Program-made: the position numbers and the translations under genes | Source: Minisyncoccia bacterium | Lineage (GTDB): Bacteria > Patescibacteriota > Minisyncoccia > Phycocordibacterales > UBA6065 | Direction: 5' to 3' | DNA: 64,000 nt | Assembly (NCBI GenBank): GCA_044233485.1 | Contig: JBIIJY010000004.1 | Location: forward strand, 16,022-80,021 | The notes under the pieces: generated by a model | Database searches by the model: none | The model's input: the letters and a program-made list of their open reading frames with translations, nothing else | Told to the model about the DNA's origin: nothing | Shown here: piece after piece, positions 25,496-37,253 of the stretch | Position numbering within the stretch: position 1 is the stretch's first letter | How the letters are laid out: each line of letters starts with the position of its first letter

Positions 25496-25972
25496 ATGAA
25501 ACAAGTAGTATGCCCGCGGAGAATGTATCAAGGTTTTACGTTGGTGGAACTTGCGATCGTGATGGCCGTACTCGCCATACTCGCATCGATAGTCATTGTC
25601 GGTATTAATCCCACTCATCAGCTCAAATCTGCTCGTGATGCGCAGCGTGTCAGTCATGTTGCCGCGATCTCAGCAGCGGTAAATCAAAACATTTTACAGC
25701 ATCGAGGGGTGTATAAATGTAGTGGGGTAGAAGTGCCGCTTCCGACTTCTACGACGACTATCAGTAGTGAGAGTGGTGGATTCCCGATCGGCTGTCTCGT
25801 CCCTAATTATCTCTCAGCGATTCCGATAGATCCAAATCGAGCTGGAGCTACCTATACTGCAACAACGACGTATAATACACAGTATCAGATTATTAAAGAA
25901 TCAGATGGGCGAGTGAGTGTGTGGGCGGTGCCTGAGGTGGAGGGTGCCGACCCGATACGAGTGACTCGTTAG
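25496..25972 (+). CDS. pilA: Type IV pilin (probable major pilin)
   Basis: ...YQGFTLVELAIVMAVLAILASIVIVGI is a canonical class III signal peptide with a hydrophobic alpha1 helix. The mature start could be reached from either the M at 25496 or the M at 25523. Confidence 0.8.
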   Translation: MKQVVCPRRMYQGFTLVELAIVMAVLAILASIVIVGINPTHQLKSARDAQRVSHVAAISAAVNQNILQHRGVYKCSGVEVPLPTSTTTISSESGGFPIGCLVPNYLSAIPIDPNRAGATYTATTTYNTQYQIIKESDGRVSVWAVPEVEGADPIRVTR

Positions 25973-25973
25973 T

Positions 25974-26021
25974 CACTTCACAGCAAAAAATCCCCTCACG
26001 GGGATTTTTTGCTGTGAAGTG
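25974..26021 (+). terminator. Perfect 22-bp inverted repeat with 4-nt loop; the inner part is a bidirectional rho-independent terminator
   Basis: cacttcacagcaaaaaatcccc-tcac-ggggattttttgctgtgaagtg, read directly. It lies between pilA and murA. Confidence 0.7.
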
Positions 26022-26054
26022 CTCGAAACGCGCAAGAGTCGATACAATACTCGT

Positions 26055-27356
26055 ATGAATTCAGAAACCGTACTCAAAGTAACTGGTTGTGGCGGAAAAA
26101 AGTCCCTACAGGGACGAGTCCAGATCAATGGTGCAAAAAATGCACTCTTGCCAGCATTAGCGAGCAGTCTACTCTTTGCCGGTGATATGAAGATCACTAA
26201 TGCACCGATCACCGAAGATACACATCGAATGAAAGAGGTGATGGAGCCTCTCGGTGTTTCATTTGATATTTCTGGCGAACATGAGATAACCCTAAACTCA
26301 GACGGGCTTCGTTCAGGAAAGCTTTCAAAGGAAGTCGCGACAAAAATGCGTGCCTCAGTAGTCTTGACCGGCCCACTGCTCGCTCGAATCGGTCGAGTGG
26401 TGTTTCCTCAGCCGGGCGGGTGTGTGATCGGTGCTCGCCCGATCGATCAGTTTATCGAAGGGTATCAAAGACTCGGGGCTCGAGTGGTCTATACAAAAGA
26501 TGCATATGTGATGACCGCTCCACCGGGTGGACTACGCGGTGCAGATATTTTTTTCAAAGTGCAGACGGTGACCGGTACCTCGGCGCTCATGATGACCGCT
26601 CTTCTTGCAAAAGGAGTGACACGACTTTCAAACTGTGCACTTGAACCAGAGATCACAAGCTTGGCGGAGTATCTCGTGTCGTGTGGAGCACAGATCAAAG
26701 GAATCGGCACAACGACACTGACGATTACTGGTGGAAAACTTCTCAAGGCAAAGAAACCTTACGTCACTATTCCAGATCGAATTGAGACGGGAAGTTTCCT
26801 CCTCCTCGGAGCACTGACGTGTAAAAATCTTGCAATAGAAAATTGTCGTCCAGATCACGTAGAAATCCTCACTTCATACCTACAAGAAGCTGGTGTCCCG
26901 ATCGAGATTGAAAAGCAGACACTTCGAATCGTGAATAATACAAAACCAAACTTCTCATTCAAGAATTTTAATGTGCGAACACACGAGTATCCCGGCTTTC
27001 CGACAGACCTTCAGCCGATCGTTGTTGCGTTCCTTGCTCTGGTAAAAGGGGAGTCAAATTTATTCGAAACTATCTATGAAGGCCGACTCAAGTACACAGG
27101 TGATTTGATTCAAATGGGAGCTTCAATCCAGATTACCTCGGCTCGAGAGCTTGTCGTCACGGGTGTAAAAAAACTACAAGGAACAACACTGATGGCGCAC
27201 GATATTCGAGCTGGCTTCGCTGTGCTCATGGCCGCCCTCGTCGCTTCAGGACAGTCTACGATTCATGGAGTCTACTTTATTGATCGCGGATACGAGGCGA
27301 TAGAAAAGCGACTTCAGGCCCTCGGGGCGAGAATAGAGCGAATCCAGGCGAAGTAG
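26055..27356 (+). CDS. murA: UDP-N-acetylglucosamine 1-carboxyvinyltransferase
   Basis: LKVTGCGGKKSLQGRVQINGAKNA... shows the EPSP-synthase fold. The catalytic Cys-to-Asp region is conserved in layout. Confidence 0.9.
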   Translation: MNSETVLKVTGCGGKKSLQGRVQINGAKNALLPALASSLLFAGDMKITNAPITEDTHRMKEVMEPLGVSFDISGEHEITLNSDGLRSGKLSKEVATKMRASVVLTGPLLARIGRVVFPQPGGCVIGARPIDQFIEGYQRLGARVVYTKDAYVMTAPPGGLRGADIFFKVQTVTGTSALMMTALLAKGVTRLSNCALEPEITSLAEYLVSCGAQIKGIGTTTLTITGGKLLKAKKPYVTIPDRIETGSFLLLGALTCKNLAIENCRPDHVEILTSYLQEAGVPIEIEKQTLRIVNNTKPNFSFKNFNVRTHEYPGFPTDLQPIVVAFLALVKGESNLFETIYEGRLKYTGDLIQMGASIQITSARELVVTGVKKLQGTTLMAHDIRAGFAVLMAALVASGQSTIHGVYFIDRGYEAIEKRLQALGARIERIQAK

Positions 27357-27437
27357 TATCGTCTGTGTACTGTATTTCAATAAATACGATACTCTCTGGC
27401 AAGTGCGCGAACGACCGTTTCAAGGTATCCTTGAGCC

Positions 27438-28454
27438 GTGAAGGCATATTTTTCTCCTAAGCTCGGAATTGATCTCGGTACGGCAAATACCCTTGTTTTT
27501 ATACCTGGAAAAGGAATTGTCTTGAATGAGCCTTCAGTGGTGGCTATTTCGATAGAAGATAACAAAATCCTCGCGGTGGGTCTTGAAGCAAAAGCGATGA
27601 TTGGTAAAACGCCAGACAATATCATGGCCTACAAGCCACTTCGTGATGGAGTGATTGCCGACTATCGCGTGACGGAAGCGATGCTTCGCTACTTCATCGA
27701 TAAGGCGCTCGGCAAGTGGAATATTTTTAAACCAGATGTACTCGTCTCAGTGCCTGCTGGTATTACTTCAACGGAACGTCGAGCGGTGGTGGAGGCGGCG
27801 ATCAAAGCTGGAGCAAAGAACGCATACATTATCAAAGAGCCGATCCTGGCAGCTCTCGGTGCGGGGATTCCGATCAATGAAGCGGTGGGTCATATGATTG
27901 TTGATATTGGTGGTGGAACGACCGACGTCGCGGTAATTTCGCTTGGTGGAATTGTCTCATCGGCCTCAGTGAAGTGTGCAGGGAATCGAATCGATAGTGC
28001 AATCATCGACTATGTAAAACGCACACACAATCTAGCGATCGGTGATCGTTCAGCGGAAGAAATAAAAATTCAAGTCGGTTCAGCAGTGAATGTGGAAGAA
28101 GAACTTTCCATGCATGTGAAAGGTCGTGATTTTGTGACTGGATTACCACGGTCGGTAGAAATAAAAACAAATGAGGTAGTCAAAGCGATAGGTCGTGAAC
28201 TTCGTGAGATGCTCAAAGCTATCAAGGACGTATTGCAAGAGACACCACCTGAACTCGCTTCAGATATCATCGACCAGGGAATCACTCTCACTGGCGGCTC
28301 AGCGCAATTGCGAAATCTTTCAGAGTTGATCCTTCGAAGAATTGGGGTGAAGGCAGCAGTTGCAAACGATGCACTTTTTTGTGTGGCGAAAGGTACCGGA
28401 GTTGCACTCGATCATCTCGATGTCTACAAAAAGGCAATAGTCGCGAAACGATAG
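27438..28454 (+). CDS. mreB: Rod shape-determining protein MreB (GTG start)
   Basis: It has actin-fold ATPase motifs (LGIDLGTANT, VDIGGGTTD, GGSAQL). Confidence 0.92.
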   Translation: MKAYFSPKLGIDLGTANTLVFIPGKGIVLNEPSVVAISIEDNKILAVGLEAKAMIGKTPDNIMAYKPLRDGVIADYRVTEAMLRYFIDKALGKWNIFKPDVLVSVPAGITSTERRAVVEAAIKAGAKNAYIIKEPILAALGAGIPINEAVGHMIVDIGGGTTDVAVISLGGIVSSASVKCAGNRIDSAIIDYVKRTHNLAIGDRSAEEIKIQVGSAVNVEEELSMHVKGRDFVTGLPRSVEIKTNEVVKAIGRELREMLKAIKDVLQETPPELASDIIDQGITLTGGSAQLRNLSELILRRIGVKAAVANDALFCVAKGTGVALDHLDVYKKAIVAKR

Positions 28455-28476
28455 CGAACTTGGTACACTCAAGAGT

Positions 28477-29121
28477 ATGTTTTCCCTCGATCATCACGCC
28501 TATGTGTATTCCAGCGGAGAGCGAGATGTGCTTCCTGTAGTTCTCGAGGCGATTCGCGAGGTGTACGGAATCGACACCACCGGAGCAAATCCAGATTTTA
28601 CCTACACTGATACGTATCAGTTCGACATTGAAGAAGCTCGGTCACTGGGTGAATGGTCACGACGCAAGCCGTTTGGGGAGCGGAAGGTTCACGTGATTCG
28701 CACGCAGGGGATTCTTCTCGAGGCACAGCATGCGCTACTGAAGACTCTCGAAGAGCCATCGCCGCAAACTCATTTCATTTTCATACTACCGAGTGCACAG
28801 TCACTTTTACCGACGGTCCGTTCCCGTGTGCAGGTGATTGGGAGTGATTCAGAATCCGCTCAGGCCAGTAACTTTCTCACTTTGTCTCTTGAGAAGCGTA
28901 AAAAAGTAATTGATGCACTCCTTGCTGGTCTTGAGGATGAAAAATTTGGGCGTGCTCAGGTGAGTCAGTTTTGCCTCGGCGTATTTAATGAACTCATGGC
29001 GCTCGGTCAGTCGGTAGAAGCGGCACGGATTGGAGAGCTGAGCGTCTCGCTCAATGAGCGAGGAGTCTCGGCAAAGTATATTTTGGAATATATTTTGTAC
29101 TTGCCGCAGCTAAGGGCTTAG
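28477..29121 (+). CDS. holB: DNA polymerase III delta'-like clamp-loader subunit, short form (214 aa) with degenerate P-loop
   Basis: LLKTLEEP plus the sensor-1/SRC-like TVRSRVQ are present. The N-terminal nucleotide-binding region lacks GxxGxGK. Confidence 0.55.
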   Translation: MFSLDHHAYVYSSGERDVLPVVLEAIREVYGIDTTGANPDFTYTDTYQFDIEEARSLGEWSRRKPFGERKVHVIRTQGILLEAQHALLKTLEEPSPQTHFIFILPSAQSLLPTVRSRVQVIGSDSESAQASNFLTLSLEKRKKVIDALLAGLEDEKFGRAQVSQFCLGVFNELMALGQSVEAARIGELSVSLNERGVSAKYILEYILYLPQLRA

Positions 29122-29147
29122 TTTTGGTTTGATATACTGATACGACT

Positions 29148-30281
29148 ATGTACCAAAATATGTACGACACTCGAACGTGGATCGAGATACACAATGATGC
29201 ACTCATTCGAAATTGTGAAGCAGTGCGAGCCTTTCTCCCACCTCATGTAAAACTCATGTCAGTAGTAAAGTCCAATGCCTACGGACATGATTTTCTCCAT
29301 GTTGCTCGGATTATTCAAGGAAGTGTTGATGCGTTTGGTGTGGACGATATCGACGAGGCGCTTGCCTTGCGTATGTATGCACATGTACAGAAGCCTATCC
29401 TCTGTCTCGGGTACACACTCACCACGCGACTCGTGGAGGCAGCGGAGCAAGATGTTTCGGTAATGCTTTCGTCACTGGATACCGCTGGAGTTTTGCGTCA
29501 CATGTCCTTTGCAAAGCCACTACGTGTACATATAGCGGTAGACACCGGACTGCATCGGCAGGGATTTTCGTGGGATCAGCGAGAGAAGCTTTTGGCACTC
29601 CTTATCGAGCTTGGGCAAAAGATACAGATCGAGGGACTCTACACGCACTTTGCAATCGCCGAAGAGCCGGGCCATCCATACAATGACCAACAGCTTGCAC
29701 TGTTTATGAAATGGAAAGATTTTTTCAAGAGTCATGGTTTTACACCGCTCTCACACACGGCAAGTACTGCCGCTCTGCTCGCTCACACTGAGGCACGTTT
29801 TGATATGGTGCGGATGGGGATTGGGACGTATGGACTCTGGCCGTCGACTCAGGTTCAAGCTCTTGTCGGAGGGCAGGTGCCGCTTGAACCGGTCTTGTCC
29901 TGGAAGGCACTCGTGAGTGAGGTGAAGGTTTTGAAGAAGGGTGACTATATCGGTTACGATCTCACTGAGCAAATGCCTCATGATGGGAAGACTGCCGTGA
30001 TTCCGGTAGGGTATTCCGACGGACTTCCACGCTCGCTTTCTTCACAGGGGGAAGTGCTTATCGGTGGATTCCGAGCGAAGATCATGGGGCGCATTTCCAT
30101 GGATGTCACGGTGGTCGATGTCAGTCATATCCCTGATGTAAAGCAGAATGATGTAGTGACATTCATTGGTCGTTCACGAGGGGATGAGATTACTGTTGAA
30201 GAGTTTGCTCGTAAGGCGGGGACGATAAACTATGAGGCTGTTACTCGAATCAATCCGTGGATTCGACGCGTCGGGAAATAG
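29148..30281 (+). CDS. alr: Alanine racemase
   Basis: VVKSNAYGHDF contains the PLP-Lys motif. The C-terminal beta domain is present. Confidence 0.9.
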   Translation: MYQNMYDTRTWIEIHNDALIRNCEAVRAFLPPHVKLMSVVKSNAYGHDFLHVARIIQGSVDAFGVDDIDEALALRMYAHVQKPILCLGYTLTTRLVEAAEQDVSVMLSSLDTAGVLRHMSFAKPLRVHIAVDTGLHRQGFSWDQREKLLALLIELGQKIQIEGLYTHFAIAEEPGHPYNDQQLALFMKWKDFFKSHGFTPLSHTASTAALLAHTEARFDMVRMGIGTYGLWPSTQVQALVGGQVPLEPVLSWKALVSEVKVLKKGDYIGYDLTEQMPHDGKTAVIPVGYSDGLPRSLSSQGEVLIGGFRAKIMGRISMDVTVVDVSHIPDVKQNDVVTFIGRSRGDEITVEEFARKAGTINYEAVTRINPWIRRVGK

Positions 30282-30338
30282 GGTGGGTTGCTTTTTGCCT
30301 AAAAATACAGTAAAGTAGTCCGTACATAACCCAAACCC

Positions 30339-30497
30339 ATGTCACAGGATTTTCTCATAAAATTAGTTAATAAAGAGACCGGCGAGATTTACTGGTCACG
30401 AAAGAATAAGAAGAAGCTTGCCGATAAAAAAATCGAGCTTAAGAAATATTCAAAAAAACTTCGTAAGCGAGTAGTCTTCAAGGAGGCAAAGAAATAG
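30339..30497 (+). CDS. rpmG: 50S ribosomal protein L33 (52 aa, non-zinc form; below the ORF-track cutoff)
   Basis: Hand translation gives MSQDFLIKLVNKETGEIYWSRKNKKKLADKKIELKKYSKKLRKRVVFKEAKK. It matches the L33 C-terminal pattern (..ELKKY.P..RKHV.FKE.K). It lies upstream of tRNA-Trp, as in many bacteria. Confidence 0.75.
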   Translation: MSQDFLIKLVNKETGEIYWSRKNKKKLADKKIELKKYSKKLRKRVVFKEAKK

Positions 30498-30507
30498 TCT
30501 CAAAACT

Positions 30508-30536
30508 AAAGCGCGGCGCCCGAAGGGCGCCGCGCT
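30508..30536 (+). terminator. GC-rich palindromic hairpin/terminator after rpmG (copy 2 of the repeated element)
   Basis: aaagcgcggcgccc-gaa-gggcgccgcgct. It matches 11431-11463 except for one loop base. Confidence 0.55.
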
Positions 30537-30574
30537 GTAGTTTCCCGGCATTGTTTGCTAGACTACGTTCACCA

Positions 30575-30649
30575 GGGCCTATAGTTTCAATGGTAAAACA
30601 TCGGTCTCCAAAACCGAGGTTCTCCGTTCGAGTCGGAGTGGGCCCGCCA
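30575..30649 (+). tRNA. trnW: tRNA-Trp (anticodon CCA), 3' CCA encoded
   Basis: Folded by hand. Acceptor is gggccta/tgggccc, D-stem gttt/aaac, anticodon stem tcggt/accga with loop ctCCAaa, T-stem ctccg/cggag with loop ttcgagt. Confidence 0.85.
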
Positions 30650-31067: not shown

Positions 31068-31925
31068 CTATCCTTGCCTGAGCCACTGAATACTTTTATT
31101 ACGTTTAAACCAAGTTCGTTGGCGCTTGGCATACTGCCAGATGGCCGCCCCGAGCTCCTCGATAAGCGCTTCTCGTGAGAGTTCGCCTTGTAGGAAGCGT
31201 GAGACAAAACGATACTCAAGCCCGAGTTCAAAAAGTCGCTCGTGAGTCACTCCGCTGGAGAGTAGTCTCTCTACTTCAGCGATCATTCCTTGATCAATTC
31301 GCCGTATAAGTCGCTCATGTATTTTCTTTCGATGAGTCTCTGGTTCCATGTCGAGGCCAATCCACTCCGCCTCAAACTCGGATTCAAGTGAGTTTTCTGG
31401 TACCGCTCCGAGGGTGTCGACTATTTCGAGCGCGCGAATGAGGCGAACTCTATTGTGTGGGTCGATAGTTTCTGCTCGGCGAGAATCCTTTTTTTCAAGA
31501 AGAGCAAAAAGTTCTGATGTAGACAGTGTAGTAAGCCTTGCTCGTAATAGAGGGTTGGCACCGACTGAGGGAAGGGGTTCCTTAGCGAGAAGGGTCTCGA
31601 TGTAGAATCCACTCCCGCCACAGATGATCACGTGTTTACCGCGTGCCCAAATATCTCGCATTGCTTCACGTCCTTTCTCCCGAAAAAGTTCAGCGCTGAA
31701 TTGCTCAGTCGGTAGGGCAACGTCGAGAAGGTGGTGGGGGATACCCTGCATCTCCTCGCGAGTGATTTTACCCGAACCGATATCAAGTCCGATATACACC
31801 TGTCTCGAATCAGCAGAAATAATCTCGCCATCGAGTTGTTTGGCGAGGGTTACCGCAAAGTCACTCTTGCCCGTAGCGGTCGGTCCGCAGACGATAGTGA
31901 GTTTTTTATCTCCGTTGGCGTTCAT
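31068..31925 (-). CDS. miaA: tRNA dimethylallyltransferase
   Basis: It has the P-loop IVCGPTATGKS, SADSRQVY and GIPHHLLD. The start is taken at MNANGDKK; the ORF-track start at 31937 is also possible. Confidence 0.9.
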   Translation of the reverse strand: MNANGDKKLTIVCGPTATGKSDFAVTLAKQLDGEIISADSRQVYIGLDIGSGKITREEMQGIPHHLLDVALPTEQFSAELFREKGREAMRDIWARGKHVIICGGSGFYIETLLAKEPLPSVGANPLLRARLTTLSTSELFALLEKKDSRRAETIDPHNRVRLIRALEIVDTLGAVPENSLESEFEAEWIGLDMEPETHRKKIHERLIRRIDQGMIAEVERLLSSGVTHERLFELGLEYRFVSRFLQGELSREALIEELGAAIWQYAKRQRTWFKRNKSIQWLRQG

Positions 31926-32006
31926 TAGTATTCTCATTGTGCATGTTTTTTTCTATAAATAAAGCCTCGAGATTTTTTCGGTTGTGTGGTACAGTCGTAG
32001 GAATAA

Positions 32007-32087
32007 GCCGGAGTGGCGGAATGGCAGACGCACGCGACTCAAAATCGCGCGGGGTAACCCGTGGGGGTTCAAGTCCCCCCTTCGGCA
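32007..32087 (+). tRNA. trnL: tRNA-Leu (anticodon CAA), CCA not encoded
   Basis: Folded by hand. Acceptor is gccggag/cttcggc with one G-U pair. The anticodon stem is cgcga/tcgcg with loop ctCAAaa. There is a 13-nt variable arm, and a T-arm of ggggg-ttcaagt-ccccc. Confidence 0.8.
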
Positions 32088-32236
32088 CAAACGTTAGTTT
32101 GTGGTGGACTTGAACGTTAGGTATAACCGTGAGATATTGACAAGTACTACTATCCATGCGATAATTCTTATCGCAAGACACTCTTGCGACTGGTTCGGCA
32201 GATTTCCGAAAGAACATTGTAAATATAGGAAAAACG

Positions 32237-32809
32237 ATGAGCACTATCATCGACGATCGGAGGAAGCAGGAGCTCAAAGCCCCTGCGGAACCCACCGAGA
32301 AGTTTGATCTGCTCGCGGATCTCGGCATCATCACGGTGCCAGATGACTACGACCACGCATTTTGGCTCGCCAAATTTCACGAGAAGCATCAAGGTGGAGA
32401 GAAAAAGTCTTTTTATGACTACGACAGATCGATCTCTGATCGAAACTTCTCGAATCCGACTCGGGTCCTGAAGCCTGGCGACAAGCTTCATGTTCGCGCG
32501 TTCAAGCAAGTCGTCGTCGGCACGACAACCTCGGAGGAGCGCATGGCATTCTTGGCAACTCAAAAGGCCATCCACACAGGTGCACAAGGTGCATCTCTCG
32601 TCTTCGATCAGAAGCGCGATCAACTGCCGAAAGGTAAGTGGTATGCTTCCCTCGATGAAAAGGATCGCCTCTGTGCAGCTGCCGACGACTACTACGTGGT
32701 GCCGCGCGTGCACTGCGGCTCGGTCGGTGGCTTCGGGTTTAGTCTTGTCGGCTTCGGGAGTGTCTCGGACACCAGCGATGCCTTCCTCTGCTTCAGCGAC
32801 ATCGAGTAG
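32237..32809 (+). CDS. Hypothetical protein (190 aa) in a locally high-GC segment
   Basis: The ORF uses GC3-rich codons (ctg, ggc, gac, gcc), unlike neighbouring genes. A long antisense ORF (32168..32713) is a typical high-GC artefact. No family was recognised. Confidence 0.55.
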   Translation: MSTIIDDRRKQELKAPAEPTEKFDLLADLGIITVPDDYDHAFWLAKFHEKHQGGEKKSFYDYDRSISDRNFSNPTRVLKPGDKLHVRAFKQVVVGTTTSEERMAFLATQKAIHTGAQGASLVFDQKRDQLPKGKWYASLDEKDRLCAAADDYYVVPRVHCGSVGGFGFSLVGFGSVSDTSDAFLCFSDIE

Positions 32810-32851
32810 TCCTTGGACACTCAGTTTGTTCTTCGGGTTCTAAGAACCTCT

Positions 32852-32886
32852 GAGCCCTTGCTTCACTGCGAGGGCTCGTTTTTTAT
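32852..32886 (+). terminator. Hairpin plus T-tract terminator
   Basis: gagccct-(12-nt loop)-agggctc followed by GTTTTTTAT. Confidence 0.5.
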
Positions 32887-32928
32887 ACCCACTTTCACGA
32901 TTAGTGAACTTTTGCATATAATAGAGAG

Positions 32929-34038
32929 ATGAATAATCAATTCGCAGACAATGCCATCTTTTGGATTGAGGTGGAAAAAATAAATCCAAACCCATACCAG
33001 CCACGAAAAGAATTTGATGAGACTGCACTTCGAGACCTCTCGGACTCGATCAAAATGTACGGCGTCCTCCAGCCACTGGTGGTCACTCGTCGAGAAGAAT
33101 ATCGTGACGATGGGGGAATGAACGTCACCTACGAGCTCATCTCGGGTGAACGTCGTTGGCGCGCCTCTCGTCTCGCCGGTCTCAAGACAGTGCCAGCCCT
33201 GATCCGACAAGGGACAGATGATGCTAAGCTCAAACTCGAACTGGCAATCATCGAAAACCTTCAGCGTGAGGATCTCAATGTCGTCGAGCGTGCGCGATCG
33301 TTCTACAAGCTCATTCATGAGTTTGGAATGAAGCAGTTTGAGGTAGCGCAGAAAGTCCAGAAATCACGTGAGTACGTAAACAACACTCTCCGTATCCTCG
33401 CTCTGCCAGAAGAAATTCTCACCGGTCTTTCACAGGGGAAAATTACCGAGGGGCATACTCGACCGCTCTTGATGCTCAGTGACCGGCCACAAGAACAACT
33501 CGTTTTGTTCAAAGAAATCGTCTACAAAAAAATCTCAGTGCGTGAAGCAGAAAAAATCGCTCGACGTATTGCAGTCGATCGAGTTAAGAAGAAAGAGCTC
33601 ATCGTTGCTCCGGAGATTATCGAGCTTGAGAAGACGATTATGGATTCGCTTGGCACACGGGTACACATCGAGAAAGACACGAAGGGTGGGAAAATTACTA
33701 TCGACTTCTTCTCTGATGAGGATTTGAAAATGATTACCGCACTTTTGAATACTGGTGAGAAGCGTGGCGCACAGCACATGCTTAACAAGTTCATTGAATC
33801 GCAAGCCCAGGCTACTCCAGCTGTGGCGACTGATCCTCATCCGCAAGTGGTGACCGACGTGCATCCGGTAGTCTCTGCGGATCCGCATCCAGCAGTCCTT
33901 GAATCAAAAGCCGACATCGCTCAGGCGGCAGTAGTAGAAGAAGCGGCTGCACCAGAAGATGATCGGGCGACCGAAGACAAGAAGAAAGAAGAAGAGTCGA
34001 CTGACGAGATCTATTCGATAAAAAACTTCAGTCTCTAA
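32929..34038 (+). CDS. parB: Chromosome partitioning protein ParB/Spo0J family, with C-terminal DPHP-repeat / acidic extension
   Basis: The ParB N-domain is present (INPNPYQPRKEFDETALRDLSDSIKMYGVLQPLVV..ISGERRWRAS), then an HTH. There are C-terminal repeats TDPHPQVV / TDVHPVV / ADPHPAV. No parA is adjacent. Confidence 0.85.
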   Translation: MNNQFADNAIFWIEVEKINPNPYQPRKEFDETALRDLSDSIKMYGVLQPLVVTRREEYRDDGGMNVTYELISGERRWRASRLAGLKTVPALIRQGTDDAKLKLELAIIENLQREDLNVVERARSFYKLIHEFGMKQFEVAQKVQKSREYVNNTLRILALPEEILTGLSQGKITEGHTRPLLMLSDRPQEQLVLFKEIVYKKISVREAEKIARRIAVDRVKKKELIVAPEIIELEKTIMDSLGTRVHIEKDTKGGKITIDFFSDEDLKMITALLNTGEKRGAQHMLNKFIESQAQATPAVATDPHPQVVTDVHPVVSADPHPAVLESKADIAQAAVVEEAAAPEDDRATEDKKKEEESTDEIYSIKNFSL

Positions 34039-34048
34039 GAAAGTGAAA

Positions 34049-34076
34049 AACAACTGCCACGAGCAGTTGTTTTTCA
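34049..34076 (+). terminator. Rho-independent terminator after parB
   Basis: An aacaactgc-cacga-gcagttgtt hairpin followed by TTTTC. Confidence 0.6.
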
Positions 34077-34086
34077 TTCCGAAGCG

Positions 34087-34285
34087 TTGTATTTACAAAA
34101 CGTCAAAAAATGATAGAGTGGGGTGGTAAGCCAAAGACAGTAGAGACCGCAAGGTTTAATGAGGAACTCCTTACTCTACCGAGGTGATATGTACAGTAAT
34201 GTGCATTCTTCTCAATTGACGCTTACTCGGGCGTCTTTTTTCATAAAGACACTCGAAGGAATTATCAGATTCAGAACCTTACATT
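34087..34285 (+). promoter_or_regulatory. rplJ upstream region: putative promoter (TG-a-TAGAGT at 34111-34119) and a structured L10 leader with a hairpin/T-tract (34219-34243)
   Basis: The -10-like TAGAGT with an upstream TG shares the motif seen at 3712 and 7333. The leader is about 165 nt and contains a gacgc-ttactcgg-gcgtc-tttttt attenuator-like hairpin. L10 leaders are known autoregulatory targets. Confidence 0.4.
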
Positions 34286-34780
34286 ATGGCAATCACAAAG
34301 GCTCGAAAACAAGAAATTGTTGCTGACGTGGTTACAGCATTGAAGGGCGCATCTACCGTTACGTTCGTAAGTTTCAAAGGACTTTCTGCAAACAACACAG
34401 TAAAGTTCCGAAAGCAGCTTACTGGAGGTAATGTCGGATACGTAGTAGCAAAGAAGTCTCTCATCAAACGAGCGCTTGCTGAAGTAGGTGTCACTGGCGA
34501 AATGCCAAAGATTCCTGCAGAAGTAGCGATCGCCTATGGTGCAGACAAAATTGCTCCCGCGCGTGAAGTCTTTGATTTTGCAAAAAAGAACAAAGACGGA
34601 GTCACGATGCTCGGTGGAATTTTCGATGGAAAATACGTCTCACAGGCTGAGATCATTTCTATCGCTTCTATTCCTCCAGTGGAAACTCTCCGCGGCCAGC
34701 TCGTCTATCTTCTCCAGTCACCAATTCAGCGTTTCGCGATGGTGCTCGATGCGATAGCAAAGGCAAAACCACAGCAGTAA
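34286..34780 (+). CDS. rplJ: 50S ribosomal protein L10
   Basis: The L10 family pattern is present. It is immediately followed by L7/L12. Confidence 0.9.
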
Positions 34781-34805
34781 TTACTTATTTAAATTTACAC
34801 ATACT

Positions 34806-35180
34806 ATGGAAACTCCAGCAAAATTCCAGGCAATTGTAGACTCGATCGAAAAAATGTCAGTGATCGATCTCAATGAGCTTGTAAAATTCCTCGAAGCTAA
34901 GTTCGGGGTAACTGCAGCCGCTATGGCAGTTGCAGCTCCAGCAGCCGGCGCAGCCGCAGGTGAAGAGAAGTCAGCATTTACTCTCCATCTCGCAGATGCA
35001 GGTGCAAACAAGATCGCGGTTATCAAGGTTGTTAAAGAAGCTTTGAATCTCGGTCTCGCAGAGGCGAAAGCCGCTGTTGACGGTGCTCCAAAGGCGCTCA
35101 AGGAAGGTCTTAAGAAAGACGAAGCAGATGCTCTCAAGAAGAAACTTGAGGAGGCAGGTGCTAAGGTTGAACTTAAATAG
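34806..35180 (+). CDS. rplL: 50S ribosomal protein L7/L12
   Basis: It has the N-terminal dimerisation helix, an Ala-rich hinge, and the C-terminal domain [28 protein letters not shown].. Confidence 0.95.
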
Positions 35181-35193
35181 TCATCCCTTCTAC

Positions 35194-35225
35194 AAAAACC
35201 CACCTAACGGTGGGTTTTTGTTTTG
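35194..35225 (+). terminator. Rho-independent terminator after rplL
   Basis: A cccacc-taac-ggtggg hairpin followed by TTTTTGTTTTG. Confidence 0.7.
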
Positions 35226-35311
35226 GGAGAATTGCTAGGGTATGTGGTCTCGCCATATCTTCACTCTAATGCCAAGTACAAAACCACTCCGATTCCAGTA
35301 CAATTCACTGC

Positions 35312-35932
35312 ATGGAGAAACTCGTAAAAATCTTTGGCTCAGACTTACGGATCAAATTACTGAAACTCTTTATTTTTAACCCAGAGAAAGTGTTTGACGG
35401 TGAGATGATTATTGACCGCGTACAGGTAAAGAAACCGCTCGTCGCAAAAGAGCTCAAGAATCTGCTTTCAATTGGCTTTATCAAAGAAAAGCAGTTCATG
35501 AAGGAGGTGAATGAGACGAAGCGTGACGGCTCGGTGATCGCCACCAAAAAGCGCACTGATGGGTATGGGGCGAATCCATCTTTTGCGTATTTTCAAAACC
35601 TCGCGCAGTTTTTTGTTGATGTGAGTCCGCTCAATGACGAAGAGATTCGTCGTCGCGTAGAACTCGTCGGACGAGTAAAGCTTCTCATTGTTGCGGGAAT
35701 TTTTACCCAGAATCAAGACAGTATCGTCGATCTCTTTGTCGTTGCTGATGCGATCAAGAAGCAAAAGCTCGATAAGTTTGTGAAGTCTATCGAGGCTGAT
35801 ACTGGTCGAGAGATCCGCTATACAATCATGGATAGTGAAGAGTTTCGTGAGCGACAGACTATGTACGATCGACTCGTCCGTGACGTGCTCGATTTCCCGC
35901 ACAAGAAGCTTGTTAATAAGATAGGGGCGTAG
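35312..35932 (+). CDS. Hypothetical protein (206 aa), possible N-terminal winged-helix domain
   Basis: The N-terminal ~60 aa have a helix-turn-helix-like pattern (LRIKLLKLFIFNPEKVFDGEMIIDRVQVKKPLVAKELKNLLSIGFIKEK). No confident family call. Confidence 0.45.
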   Translation: MEKLVKIFGSDLRIKLLKLFIFNPEKVFDGEMIIDRVQVKKPLVAKELKNLLSIGFIKEKQFMKEVNETKRDGSVIATKKRTDGYGANPSFAYFQNLAQFFVDVSPLNDEEIRRRVELVGRVKLLIVAGIFTQNQDSIVDLFVVADAIKKQKLDKFVKSIEADTGREIRYTIMDSEEFRERQTMYDRLVRDVLDFPHKKLVNKIGA

Positions 35933-35952
35933 TCTGGTACAATAAAAGTACT

Positions 35953-36873
35953 ATGCAGTGGTTTTTCGTAGCATTAATAGCCCCGTTTCTCTGGAGTATT
36001 GTTAATCACGCTGATAAGTATCTGCTCTCAAAGTATTTTAAAAGAGGAGGGGTGGGTGCTCTCATGCTCTTCTCGACATTGTTCGGCTTAGTAGTACTAC
36101 CAATAGCCTTCTTCATGGCTAGTGATGTACTACTTCTCGATCCAAAGAGTATTACACTTTTGATAGTAGCCAGTATCGCGAACGCCCTTGCTATCACTCT
36201 CTATCTGCGGGCATTACAAGAAGAAGAGACTTCTGTGGTGGTACCAATATTCCAACTCGTTCCTTTTTTTTCATACATTCTCAGCTACTTTATTCTTGGT
36301 GAAAAATTAGAGCTCGTTCAAATGCTTGGAGGTATTTTAATTTTGTTTGGAGCGATCGCTATTACGATTGATTTCAAATACTTGGCGTCACGAAACTTTA
36401 AATTGAAATTAAGATTACTTGTCTCGATGATGGCCTCAAGCGCCCTCTTTGCACTGTATGTGGTCTTGTTTAAATCCGTGGCGGTAGAGGAGGGGTACTG
36501 GCTCTCTACTTTTTGGGAGTATGTCGGCCTAGTTATAGTCGGTGTCTTCATCTGGATTTTCAACCAAAAGGCGAGGGGTGAGTTTATCGCCACACTCAAA
36601 TCAAACAGTGCTCCAATTATTGGTGTGAACGTGGGGAGTGAAATTTTGACTATCGCCGGTAATATGATCACTAATTTTGCGGCTCTCGCGATCCCGGTGA
36701 CGATGGTACTCCTCGCCAGTGCCTATCAGCCAGTATTTGTTCTTATTCAGGGCGTGCTCCTTACGCTGCTCTTTCCGAAGATTGCAGAAGAGGATATTTC
36801 AAAAACGGCTCTGACAATAAAAATCACCGCAATTGTTATCGTTGTCATTGGTAGCTATATATTGCTTCAATGA
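35953..36873 (+). CDS. EamA-like transporter (drug/metabolite transporter superfamily), 10 TM
   Basis: Two EamA-type repeats are present, with the motif ILGEKL..GGILILFGAIAI. Confidence 0.75.
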   Translation: MQWFFVALIAPFLWSIVNHADKYLLSKYFKRGGVGALMLFSTLFGLVVLPIAFFMASDVLLLDPKSITLLIVASIANALAITLYLRALQEEETSVVVPIFQLVPFFSYILSYFILGEKLELVQMLGGILILFGAIAITIDFKYLASRNFKLKLRLLVSMMASSALFALYVVLFKSVAVEEGYWLSTFWEYVGLVIVGVFIWIFNQKARGEFIATLKSNSAPIIGVNVGSEILTIAGNMITNFAALAIPVTMVLLASAYQPVFVLIQGVLLTLLFPKIAEEDISKTALTIKITAIVIVVIGSYILLQ

Positions 36874-37253
36874 GTGATAAAACTGCGACAACAAGTAGAG
36901 GTACGGCGCCAACAGTAATTTTTATAATCTGTATCACCGGTGCTATCTTCTTTAAGATTTGGGTGTATCTATTCTCTGCCAATTTTCAACTTACCGGAGA
37001 ATTACCTTGTAGAAATGGAGAGTTGTGTTTTATAAAAGATTGTTCTACTGAGGTGTGTCTTAGGGCAGAAGATGACGGCATGTTCTACTATAAGAAATTT
37101 ACAGCGCAGGCTCGTAGTGTCTCTGAGCAGTGTACAAATGCAGATGGGTTTCTTGGTGAGTCATGCGTAGAAACTTTTTGTGCTACAAATCCGAAATCAT
37201 GTCAGGTAGAATACTGTTCGGGTGAGCAGTGCCGCTTAAATCTGAATGAATAG
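36870..37253 (+). CDS. Small membrane-anchored cysteine-rich protein (127 aa, ~11 Cys)
   Basis: It has an N-terminal TM helix. The Cys-rich ectodomain reads PCRNGELCFIKDCSTEVC...CTNADGFLGESCVETFCATNPKSCQVEYCSGEQC. It overlaps the stop of the EamA gene by 4 nt. Confidence 0.5.
   Translation: MSDKTATTSRGTAPTVIFIICITGAIFFKIWVYLFSANFQLTGELPCRNGELCFIKDCSTEVCLRAEDDGMFYYKKFTAQARSVSEQCTNADGFLGESCVETFCATNPKSCQVEYCSGEQCRLNLNE

What the first reader, a model, noticed from the sequence alone, without database searches (positions are those of the whole stretch)
32088..32886. High-GC island with an unknown 190-aa gene immediately 3' of tRNA-Leu
The ~0.75 kb after tRNA-Leu(CAA) is conspicuously more GC-rich than the rest of the window, with runs such as ccgcgcgtgcactgcggctcggtcggtggcttcggg. 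The ORF uses GC3-rich codons, unlike the r-protein and envelope genes. A long spurious antisense ORF is a hallmark of the compositional shift.

tRNA 3' ends are classic integration sites. The protein ends in a Gly/Ser/Phe-rich tail (GSVGGFGFSLVGFGSVSDTSDAFLCFSDIE) and has no recognisable family.

This is a candidate horizontally acquired cargo gene, which could be a toxin, an immunity protein or a defence protein.
Basis: seen in the sequence. Interest (0 to 1): 0.55.

Follow-up and report, generated by a model that had tools for sequence, protein, structure and literature searches.

The report
Solo DGR hypervariable-protein gene beside tRNA-Leu
The GC-rich 190-aa gene is not an unknown toxin but a stand-alone copy of a target gene of a diversity-generating retroelement (a reverse-transcriptase system that rewrites one end of a binding protein), acquired as a 0.76-kb module next to tRNA-Leu in a Patescibacteria genome, with no reverse transcriptase or template in the 64-kb window.

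Summary
ORF 32237-32809 has GC 0.551 and GC3 0.665, against window gene means of 0.46 and 0.42 (z about 3.4 and 4).

It has more than 436 unannotated homologues, those named being Patescibacteria. In relatives the gene sits next to a template repeat (TR), an Avd accessory gene and a reverse transcriptase. In 16 loci the gene's 3' 120 nt differ from the TR almost only at TR adenines (for example 19 of 19). This is the signature of a diversity-generating retroelement (DGR).

Against the closest foreign TR, 71% of TR adenines are changed but only 10% of other bases.

The window has no TR, Avd or RT. Relatives at 87-91% nucleotide identity are collinear but lack window 32117-32876 (one contig reaches only its right edge). 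Those relatives carry instead a short segment with a 22-nt repeat of the tRNA-Leu 3' end. So "acquired cargo" is supported, and "toxin, immunity or defence" is replaced by "DGR variable protein".

I cannot settle whether a DGR elsewhere in the genome still rewrites this copy. The split is about 50% frozen orphan, 43% remote target and 7% other readings. This is a new member of a known kind. The family's gene-wide GC3 excess in every host remains unexplained.

The parts
32007..32088 (+). tRNA-Leu(CAA). It is ancestral to this locus, and the module lies 28 nt past its 3' end.
   Evidence: ARAGORN and Rfam RF00005 at 55 bits. tRNA-Leu(CAA) also sits between miaA and parB in L059-L061, on the opposite strand, and in L062 on the same strand.
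32089..32116 (+). Post-tRNA segment shared with the relative that lacks the gene (AACGTTAGTTTGTGGTGGACTTGAACG). It contains a small hairpin and a 13-nt complement of the tRNA T-arm. Collinearity with L062 ends at its right edge.
   Evidence: Identical in L062 up to window 32116, after which the sequences diverge. Inverted repeat I5.
32117..32876 (+). The roughly 760-nt indel: promoter, 5' UTR, variable-protein gene, post-VR hairpins and terminator. It is present here and replaced by about 124 nt in L062; L063 starts inside that replacement segment.
   Evidence: blastn of L062 and L063 against the window. Collinear blocks stop at 32116 and resume at 32881. Positions 32137-32887 are 80-92% identical in pieces to target-gene loci in unrelated hosts.
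32137..32165 (+). Sigma-70-type promoter: TTGACA, 17-nt spacer, TG-extended GATAAT. Homology to other target loci starts here.
   Evidence: 11 of 12 consensus matches. Upstream homology to L010, L055, L058 and L020 begins at about 32134-32137.
32166..32236 (+). Conserved 5' UTR with a small hairpin (TCGCAAGA-CACT-CTTGCGA). Role unknown.
   Evidence: 85-92% identical to the 55-70 nt before the ATG in L009, L011, L014, L016, L024 and L056. No Rfam family.
32237..32809 (+). DGR variable-protein (target) gene, 190 aa. It has no signal peptide or membrane segment. It lacks the roughly 45-aa N-terminal extension that most close homologues carry.
   Evidence: homologues. AF2 model with pLDDT 87.6 and pTM 0.81. 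The weak Foldseek hits are almost all C-type lectin domains.
32681..32800 (+). Variable region (VR), encoding residues about 149-188. Composition is A 13, G 40, C 37, T 30, with no AAC codon.
   Evidence: Aligns with 12 TRs. Against the L010 TR, 22 of 31 TR adenines are changed and 9 of 89 other bases. Its A fraction of 0.11 is VR-like; TRs have 0.22-0.27 with 4-11 AAC.
32804..32822 (+). Conserved stem straddling the stop codon (GAGTAGTC-CTTG-GACACTC). It is a candidate DGR target-recognition hairpin. The loop is 8 nt shorter than in most relatives, but the stem is intact.
   Evidence: Family alignment. RNAalifold pairs 30-47, 31-46 and 32-45, with 3 compensatory changes. The same stem folds in the window and in L010. 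Cassette-linked L024 also has a 4-nt loop.
32828..32848 (+). Second small hairpin (GTTCTT...AAGAAC, or GGTTC/GAACC).
   Evidence: By eye, relatives have GGGTC/GACCC or GGATC/GATCC at the same place. Present in the MFE fold. RNAalifold did not call it.
32851..32885 (+). Intrinsic terminator (11-pair stem, 6-nt loop, T-run). It is the right end of the conserved module.
   Evidence: Fold z-score -4.65. 10 predicted pairs, 6 of them with compensatory changes, across 20 loci.
32929..34038 (+). parB, the host gene on the right flank, with its own promoter at 32894-32922. It is not part of the module.
   Evidence: Pfam ParB_N, HTH_ParB and ParB_C. Promoter. Directly follows tRNA-Leu in relatives.
31068..31937 (-). 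miaA, the host gene on the left flank. It is not part of the module.
   Evidence: Pfam IPPT, E = 4.6e-60. Conserved neighbour in relatives.

Best explanation
**Identity (about 0.93; shown by comparison)**
The ORF is a member of a Patescibacteria family of DGR variable (target) proteins. In a complete element the RT, helped by Avd, copies the TR RNA into cDNA and misincorporates opposite adenines. The cDNA then replaces the last ~120 nt of the target gene. This randomises about a dozen codons (mostly AAC in the TR) on one face of a probably C-type-lectin-like binding domain. The rest of the scaffold stays fixed.

The window's VR (32681-32800) carries that footprint. TR-type adenines have become G, C or T. 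This is why that stretch reads as a GC-rich run and as a Gly/Ser/Phe-rich tail.

**Acquisition (shown by comparison)**
The gene arrived as a self-contained ~760-nt module of promoter, 5' UTR, ORF, post-VR hairpin and terminator. It sits 28 nt downstream of tRNA-Leu(CAA), in a spot where close relatives carry only an att-like scar.

**Status (inferred; about 0.5)**
This copy is solo and currently frozen. It has no TR, Avd or RT within 31 kb on either side, and its VR is invariant across assemblies. It is expressed from its own strong promoter as a cytoplasmic binding protein of fixed specificity.

**Origin (inferred)**
One possibility is that it is what remains of a tRNA-Leu-integrated element that lost TR-Avd-RT. 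The other is that it was copied in alone.

The confidence below is for the whole statement, including "frozen".
For: **The family is a DGR target family**
- In L001 the order is target, TR, Avd (bAvd, PF22296), then RT (RVT_1). All 19 VR/TR mismatches fall at TR adenines.
- 16 of the 46 genome-collection loci have Avd next to the target, 15 of them with a full-length RT and one (L033) with only an 81-aa RT match.
- 16 loci have TR/VR pairs with 10-19 adenine mismatches and 0-3 others.
- L024 and L026 each have two targets sharing one TR.

**This copy carries a VR**
- TRs and VRs separate cleanly by A content and AAC count, and the window segment is VR-like.
- Against the L010 TR, 71% of adenines are changed and 10% of other bases.

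**Fold**
- The AF2 model is confident.
- The top weak Foldseek hits are nearly all C-type lectin domains.

**Acquisition**
- The indel is seen against L062, with L063 agreeing at the right edge.
- miaA, tRNA-Leu and parB are adjacent in L059-L061.
- Module DNA is about 80% identical to loci in hosts whose ParB is at most 68% identical at the protein level.

**Solo and frozen**
- No TR by blastn at word size 7.
- No RT or Avd by tblastn, and no RT with an HMM built from 120 RTs. The positive control scored 3e-185.
- The VR is identical in L006-L008, although L006 has a SNP elsewhere.
- The 90% identity cluster holds one sequence from 5 contigs, while the ParB cluster holds two.
- W177S and G171V lie at codons that are TGG and GGN in all 12 aligned TRs.
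- No RT among the top 120 hits sits on a 681,047-nt contig.
Against: **Limits on "frozen"**
- Only 64 kb of a contig of at least 681 kb is visible.
- The public scans did not contain this genome. One search failed to re-find the window's own VR, and one search returned no 100% locus. A cognate TR elsewhere therefore cannot be excluded.
- Remote servicing is real in this family. The solo L050 VR differs from the L046 TR of the same MAG at 10 of 10 adenine positions and nowhere else.
- Nine non-adenine differences from the nearest foreign TR is normal for VRs with a live cassette. They show 2-16.
- The post-VR stem, promoter, terminator and ORF are intact.
- The protein deviates from family-conserved columns no more than average: 5 of 102.
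- The invariant assemblies may all sample one near-clonal population.

**Limits elsewhere**
- The C-type lectin assignment rests on non-significant hits (best E = 0.2).
- The direction of the indel (gain here or loss in relatives) is inferred by parsimony only.
Confidence: 0.5

Rival explanations
1. Same identity, but this copy is a live remote target. A DGR cassette (TR-Avd-RT, with or without its own adjacent target) lies elsewhere on the chromosome, more than 31 kb away. It periodically rewrites this VR in trans.
For: - Trans-servicing is shown within one MAG: L046 TR against L050 VR, 10 of 10 mismatches at adenines, although the two genes are only 80% identical.
- Several solo copies (L004, L009, L012, L015) match the L010-type TR with 0-1 non-adenine differences.
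- The window keeps the post-VR stem, which shows compensatory changes across the family.
- The ORF, promoter and terminator are intact.
- Remote targets are documented for other DGRs (PMC5758913).
Against: - The VR is identical in four assemblies, and the protein cluster holds a single sequence.
- Two substitutions fall at codons invariant in all 12 aligned TRs.
- No candidate RT on the 681-kb contig appears among the 120 best RT hits.
- Of roughly 24 MAGs with solo copies, only one or two yielded a cassette of this family in the same scan.
- Wu et al. found targets more than 100 kb away only in non-CPR lineages, and found that CPR DGRs tend to have one target.
Confidence: 0.43
2. The resemblance to DGR targets is incidental. 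The gene is an ordinary horizontally acquired cargo gene (toxin, immunity or other defence protein).
For: - It has foreign composition and shows a presence/absence polymorphism next to a tRNA.
- No curated family assigns a function.
Against: - It is 60-73% identical over its whole length to proteins that sit beside TR-Avd-RT with adenine-only VR differences.
- It has no hit in PADLOC.
- It has no partner gene. The module holds a single ORF.
Confidence: 0.03
3. The gene is native and ancestral at this locus. Its composition falls within normal genomic variance, and relatives lost it by deletion.
For: - L062 and L063 carry a tRNA 3'-end repeat at the same spot, so their state is itself derived.
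- The direction of the indel is not proven.
Against: - Its GC3 is the highest of 65 ORFs, at z about 4.
- The family sits at different loci in different genomes.
- Three outgroups have tRNA-Leu next to parB without it.
- The family is GC-rich relative to every host, on average by +0.11.
Confidence: 0.03

Closest known systems
DGR variable proteins with a C-terminal C-type-lectin-fold VR (Bordetella phage BPP-1 Mtd, Treponema TvpA, Thermus TaqVP, archaeal AvpA)
   Same: - The VR occupies the last ~40 codons of the ORF.
- The TR is rich in AAC codons, and TR/VR differences fall only at adenines.
- Avd and RT are adjacent in relatives.
- A stem lies just after the VR.
- The predicted alpha/beta fold has C-type lectin domains as its only, weak, structural neighbours.
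   Different: - There is no detectable sequence similarity to any solved VP or to Pfam CLec, FGE-sulfatase or DUF1566 models.
- Foldseek matches are non-significant (E at least 0.2).
- The protein is small, single-domain and apparently cytoplasmic.
- This copy has no cassette in the 64-kb window.
CPR (Patescibacteria) DGRs, clade 2 of Roux et al. 2021 (PMC8144416)
   Same: - The element is cell-encoded and, as far as records are named, found in Patescibacteria.
- The targets have no recognisable transmembrane or conserved domain, and that paper predicts them to be new CLec variants.
- RT homologues number more than 8000.
   Different: - That survey could not see targets away from the RT.
- Here about half of the family's copies are solo, including this one.
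Remote or non-adjacent DGR targets (Treponema denticola and the lineage-4 DGRs of Wu et al. 2018, PMC5758913)
   Same: - A target gene lies far from any RT.
- Within this family, the L046/L050 pair shows that trans-servicing occurs.
   Different: - Wu et al. found targets more than 100 kb away only outside CPR, and CPR DGRs mostly with one target.
- For the window copy the servicing element is not demonstrated.
tRNA-gene-targeted genomic islets or integrative elements
   Same: - The module lies 28 nt from a tRNA 3' end.
- It has foreign composition and is absent from close relatives.
- Those relatives carry a 22-nt repeat of the tRNA 3' end.
   Different: - There is no integrase.
- The window has no flanking direct repeat.
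- It holds only one gene.

Membership tests
DGR variable (target) protein family | Homologues have a cognate TR nearby whose differences from the VR fall at TR adenines only. | tested here: met
   16 loci show 10-19 adenine mismatches against 0-3 others.
DGR variable (target) protein family | Homologues sit next to a DGR-clade RT and an Avd accessory gene. | tested here: met
   16 of the 46 genome-collection loci have Avd next to the target, 15 with a full-length RT and L033 with only an 81-aa RT match. The same holds in L001, L055 and L058. Precomputed Pfam hits are bAvd and RVT_1.
DGR variable (target) protein family | The sequence is homologous over its full length to such targets. | tested here: met
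   About 60-73% identity at 81-100% coverage among the 120 listed. The VR aligns column for column.
DGR variable (target) protein family | This copy's VR shows adenine-specific divergence from the TR. | tested here: met
   Tested against foreign TRs only. 65-71% of TR adenines are changed, against 10-34% of other bases. The best case is L010, at 22 of 31 against 9 of 89. A fraction is 0.11 with 0 AAC codons.
Complete (autonomous) DGR locus | TR, RT and the accessory gene lie in the same locus as the VR. | tested here: not met
   The 64-kb window has no TR and no RT or Avd.
Active DGR target (adjacent or remote) | A cognate TR exists somewhere in the same genome. | not testable with these tools
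   The source genome is not in the scannable collections. The RT search gave no hit on the 681-kb contig among the top 120, which is inconclusive.
Active DGR target (adjacent or remote) | The VR is polymorphic between strains or samples at the adenine-templated sites. | tested here: not met
   L006-L008 have an identical VR. The protein cluster holds a single sequence. Sampling is limited and no read-level data are available.
Active DGR target (adjacent or remote) | A recognition element (IMH plus a hairpin) lies just 3' of the VR. | tested here: inconclusive
   The conserved stem is present with 3 compensatory changes. Its fold energy is not unusual, with z from -0.6 to -0.8. The loop is 8 nt shorter here. 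Function is untested.
C-type lectin fold | Structural similarity to CLec domains. | tested here: inconclusive
   The model is confident (pLDDT 87.6). The top weak hits in PDB, and several of the top hits in BFVD, are C-type lectin domains. The best E-value is 0.19-0.2 and target-normalised TM-scores among the top PDB hits are about 0.32-0.48.
tRNA-integrated genomic island | A direct repeat of the tRNA 3' end lies at the far boundary. | tested here: not met
   None in the window. A 22-nt repeat is present in L062 and L063, which lack the gene.
tRNA-integrated genomic island | An integrase or recombinase gene is present. | tested here: not met
   The 760-nt module holds one real ORF.
tRNA-integrated genomic island | The segment is present or absent among close relatives and has atypical composition. 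| tested here: met
Known anti-phage defence, toxin or immunity proteins | A match to a curated defence or toxin model. | tested here: not met
   PADLOC, Pfam, NCBIfam and PHROGs gave nothing.

The most novel reading that the evidence does not exclude
The promoter-to-terminator target module is itself the unit that spreads among Patescibacteria, independently of the RT cassette. Solo copies like this one would be seeded into genomes as ready-made, DGR-compatible or already-selected binding proteins. The family's gene-wide GC3 excess would be the trace of that turnover, or of a GC-biased repair process coupled to retrohoming that reaches beyond the VR. The excess is +0.125 over the flanks in every host, while the neighbouring RT tracks host GC.
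Probability: 0.15. Interest if true: 0.65.

Novelty: new member of a known kind. Interest (0 to 1): 0.4.

Why it matters
**Annotation.** This gives a function-level label to a large family with no label in the libraries I searched. The family has more than 436 proteins, and 757 clusters at 50% identity. It is absent from Pfam, NCBIfam, PADLOC and PHROGs, and the few members that carry a source name are called "hypothetical". The label is: DGR variable protein of Patescibacteria, with the VR at the C-terminus.

**Survey bias.** About half of the copies surveyed have no TR, Avd or RT in the DNA fetched around them, 4-10 kb on each side for about 20 of them. RT-anchored DGR surveys state that they miss such copies (PMC8144416). 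Counts of diversified or formerly diversified genes in CPR genomes are therefore probably too low.

**General lesson.** A short GC-rich, A-poor patch at the 3' end of an ORF in an AT-leaning genome can be the footprint of adenine mutagenesis.

**Open puzzle.** The gene-wide GC3 excess that adenine mutagenesis does not explain is small but genuine.

Tried and rejected
**Direct repeat of the tRNA-Leu 3' end in or after the island.** None was found. Only a 13-nt inverted match to the T-arm turned up.

**Cognate TR by a metagenome scan.** I used the window VR with N at every position differing from the L010 TR. The scan returned four L010-type TRs from other organisms and did not re-find the window's own VR. 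The collection therefore lacks this genome, and the test says nothing about a TR elsewhere.

**RT of the same genome.** I looked for a contig length of 681,047 among RT homologues. None appeared in the top 120 of more than 8000. This is inconclusive.

**Non-adenine mismatches as evidence of decay.** Rejected. VRs with live cassettes show 2-16 such differences to the nearest foreign TR.

**The 8-nt deletion after the stop codon as evidence of inactivation.** Rejected. It removes loop bases only, the stem is kept, and cassette-linked L024 also has a 4-nt loop.

**"The whole cassette came from a GC-rich donor" as the cause of the GC excess.** Rejected. Avd and RT are not GC-rich.

**A 3'-to-5' GC3 gradient, as expected from conversion tracts.** Absent.

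**Rfam search of the conserved 5' UTR and the post-VR elements.** Only the tRNA matched.

**Paul et al. 2017 (Nature Microbiology), the key CPR DGR paper.** It is not in the held library.
Full report
**1. The observation**

tRNA-Leu(CAA) is at 32007-32088 on the + strand. The 190-aa ORF is at 32237-32809 on the + strand and carries the quoted C-terminal sequence.

- ORF GC is 0.551 against 0.458 for the window. That is z = 3.4, and only 0.08% of equal-sized windows reach it.
- GC3 is 0.665. The 65 long ORFs have mean 0.424 and sd 0.060, so this is the highest in the window.
- GC1 and GC2 are ordinary.
- The antisense ORF (32168-32713) is real but spurious. The same thing appears opposite the homologue in L010.

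**2. What the gene is**

Curated libraries give nothing: Pfam, NCBIfam, PADLOC, PHROGs and PDB sequences. The protein is far from an orphan, though.

- It has more than 436 homologues, the 120 listed being about 60-73% identical. All are unnamed or called hypothetical. The few that carry organism names are Patescibacteria or Paceibacterota.
- It has 757 representative clusters.
- Most close homologues are about 230 aa. The window protein lacks an internal ~45-aa N-terminal stretch. Many more distant members also lack it.
- The "tail" aligns column for column with the homologues and is the most variable part.

The first long contig I examined (L001) shows the gene followed by a bAvd-family gene and a reverse transcriptase. 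The last 125 nt of the gene are repeated 340 nt downstream at 84.8% identity. All 19 mismatches are at adenines of the downstream copy: 13 A-to-G, 4 A-to-T and 2 A-to-C. That is the diagnostic signature of a diversity-generating retroelement, with a TR upstream of Avd and RT and a VR at the 3' end of the target gene.

A genome scan returned 46 loci.

- 16 of them have Avd adjacent to the target, 15 with a full-length RT and one (L033) with only an 81-aa RT match.
- 16 loci, counting L001, have TR/VR pairs with 10-19 adenine mismatches and 0-3 others.
- L024 and L026 each have two target paralogues that share one TR.
- TRs have an A fraction of 0.22-0.27 and 4-11 AAC triplets. VRs have 0.10-0.19 and 0-2.

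**3. The window copy**

Its 3' segment (32681-32800) aligns with all 12 aligned TRs. It is VR-like, with an A fraction of 0.11 and no AAC. Against the closest foreign TR (L010), 22 of 31 TR adenines are changed but only 9 of 89 other bases.

The rest of the module is well formed.

- Upstream is a near-consensus promoter: TTGACA, 17 nt, TG-extended GATAAT, at 32137-32165.
- Downstream are a conserved stem across the stop codon (32804-32822), a second small hairpin and a strong terminator at 32851-32885.

The AF2 model is confident, with pLDDT 87.6 and pTM 0.81. Foldseek finds nothing significant. Nearly all of the top 50 weak PDB hits, and several of the top BFVD hits, are C-type lectin domains. 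This is the fold expected for DGR variable proteins, and Roux et al. predict it for unannotated CPR targets (PMC8144416). By inspection of the sequence there is no signal peptide or membrane segment.

**4. What is missing**

The 64-kb window contains none of the other DGR parts.

- No TR, by blastn at word size 7.
- No Avd or RT by tblastn.
- No RT with an HMM built from 120 family RTs. The positive control scored 3e-185.

This copy is therefore solo. About half of the family's copies are. Roughly 20 loci with 4-10 kb of flank on each side have a VR but no TR.

**5. Acquisition**

The nearest ParB homologues outside the species are only 66-68% identical. In those genomes miaA, tRNA-Leu(CAA) and parB are directly adjacent, with the tRNA on the opposite strand.

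Two closer relatives, at 87% (L062) and 91% (L063) nucleotide identity, are more informative.

- L062 is collinear with window 25736-30648, 31171-32116 and 32881-36968. Window 32117-32876 is replaced by about 124 nt in L062.
- L063 starts inside that replacement segment, so it confirms only the right edge.
- The replacement contains a 22-nt exact repeat of the tRNA-Leu 3' end (CAAGTCCCCCCTTCGGCACAAA). This is an att-like scar. The window has no such repeat.
- The window's 32137-32887 is about 80-92% identical in pieces to target-gene loci in unrelated hosts. The homology starts exactly at the -35 hexamer and ends at the terminator T-run.

It is a one-gene module without an integrase.

My inference is that the tRNA-Leu 3' flank is an integration hotspot in this lineage. 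Either the module is the remnant of a larger integrated element that lost TR-Avd-RT and the distal repeat, or it was inserted alone.

**6. Is it still being diversified?**

For "frozen":
- The VR is identical in three other assemblies, although one of them has a SNP elsewhere.
- The 90% cluster holds one sequence from 5 contigs, while ParB has two variants.
- W177S and G171V lie at codons that are TGG and GGN in all 12 aligned TRs.
- No RT on a 681,047-nt contig appears among the top 120 RT hits.
- Only one or two of about 24 MAGs with solo copies yielded a cassette.

For "live remote target":
- In one Lloydbacteria MAG, the solo L050 VR differs from the L046 TR at 10 of 10 adenines and nowhere else. 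The two genes are otherwise only 80% identical.
- Several solo VRs match the L010-type TR with 0-1 non-adenine differences.
- The window keeps the ORF, promoter, terminator and post-VR stem.
- It deviates from conserved columns no more than average.

Two apparent signs of decay turned out to be uninformative.
- Nine non-adenine differences to the nearest foreign TR is typical of live VRs.
- The 8-nt deletion after the stop codon removes loop bases only.

I put frozen at about 50% and remote-active at about 43%, with the remainder on the two minor rivals. The public collections available here do not hold the source genome, so the decisive search could not be run.

**7. Composition beyond the VR**

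Adenine mutagenesis explains the VR but not the remaining ~150 codons, which have GC3 0.61 in the window.

- Across the fetched loci the target gene averages GC 0.553 against 0.446 for its locus. Host GC ranges from 0.34 to 0.55.
- In cassette loci the target is +0.125 above the flanks, while the adjacent RT is -0.034 and tracks host GC with r = 0.75.
- GC3 is 0.64-0.73 in every non-VR sixth of the gene and 0.82 in the VR sixth, with no gradient.

This is a property of the family, not of this genome, and I cannot explain it.

**8. Comparison with what is known, and verdict**

It works like the classical C-terminal-VR, CLec-type DGR targets (Mtd, TvpA, TaqVP, AvpA). It belongs with the CPR DGR clade described by Roux et al.. 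Remote targets are known (Wu et al.), although they are reported as uncommon for CPR DGRs.

The finding is a new member of a known kind. It is a solo copy of an uncurated DGR-target family, acquired beside tRNA-Leu. Its "acquired cargo" reading is supported. Its functional guess is replaced by a specific one. Interest is moderate at 0.4.

Noticed in passing
L062 5919-5940 and 6050-6071; L063 9-30: The close relatives that lack the target gene carry a 22-nt exact direct repeat of the tRNA-Leu(CAA) 3' end. An anticodon-arm-like fragment precedes it. This is an att-like scar of a past integration at the same tRNA.
   Followed up: partly
window 32007-32088, compared with L059 4863-4945, L060 4827-4909 and L061 4861-4944: tRNA-Leu(CAA) lies between miaA and parB in all relatives. 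It is on the opposite strand in the three more distant ones, so a local inversion occurred in the window's lineage.
   Followed up: partly
window 32086-32119: Just after the tRNA are three small features. There is a perfect small hairpin (ACAAAC-GTTA-GTTTGT). There is a 13-nt complement of the tRNA T-arm (32103-32115 against 32067-32079). There is an 8-nt direct repeat AACGTTAG at 32089 and 32112. All are shared with L062. Their meaning is unknown.
   Followed up: no
window 32137-32236, and upstream of the target genes in L009-L025, L055-L058: The promoter and 5' UTR of the target gene are 80-92% identical across unrelated hosts and include a small hairpin. There is no Rfam match. This may be a conserved regulatory leader.
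   Followed up: partly
All cassette loci (L001, L010, L011, L014, L017, L022, L024, L026, L027, L030, L035, L038, L039, L046, L048): The target gene is GC3-rich along its whole length in every host (+0.125 GC over the flanks). The adjacent RT and Avd are not. Adenine mutagenesis does not explain this.
   Followed up: partly
L024 7396-7878 and 10001-10534; L026 2596-3084 and 5338-5868: Two diverged target paralogues (about 40% and 60% identical to the window protein) flank one cassette. Both match its single TR with adenine-only differences.
   Followed up: partly
L033 10846-11534: This cassette has an intact Avd and TR, but only 81 aa of RT are detectable. Its VR still shows 15 of 15 adenine mismatches. 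It may be a DGR caught in decay. L051 repeats 1.15 kb of it at 99.8% on another contig of the same MAG.
   Followed up: no
L001, L010, L011 (Avd genes): Avd is 95-99% identical at the protein level among loci whose flanks have GC of 0.35-0.47. The L010-type TR is identical over the 97 nt compared in four further metagenome loci (L055-L058). This points to recent horizontal spread of the cassette.
   Followed up: no
window 33862-33901 (parB 3' end): The ParB C-terminal tail contains a short tandem DPHP-type repeat (ATDPHPQVVTDVHPVVSADPHPAVL). It is the part that varies between strains: P0390 and P0510 are separate sequences in one cluster.
   Followed up: no
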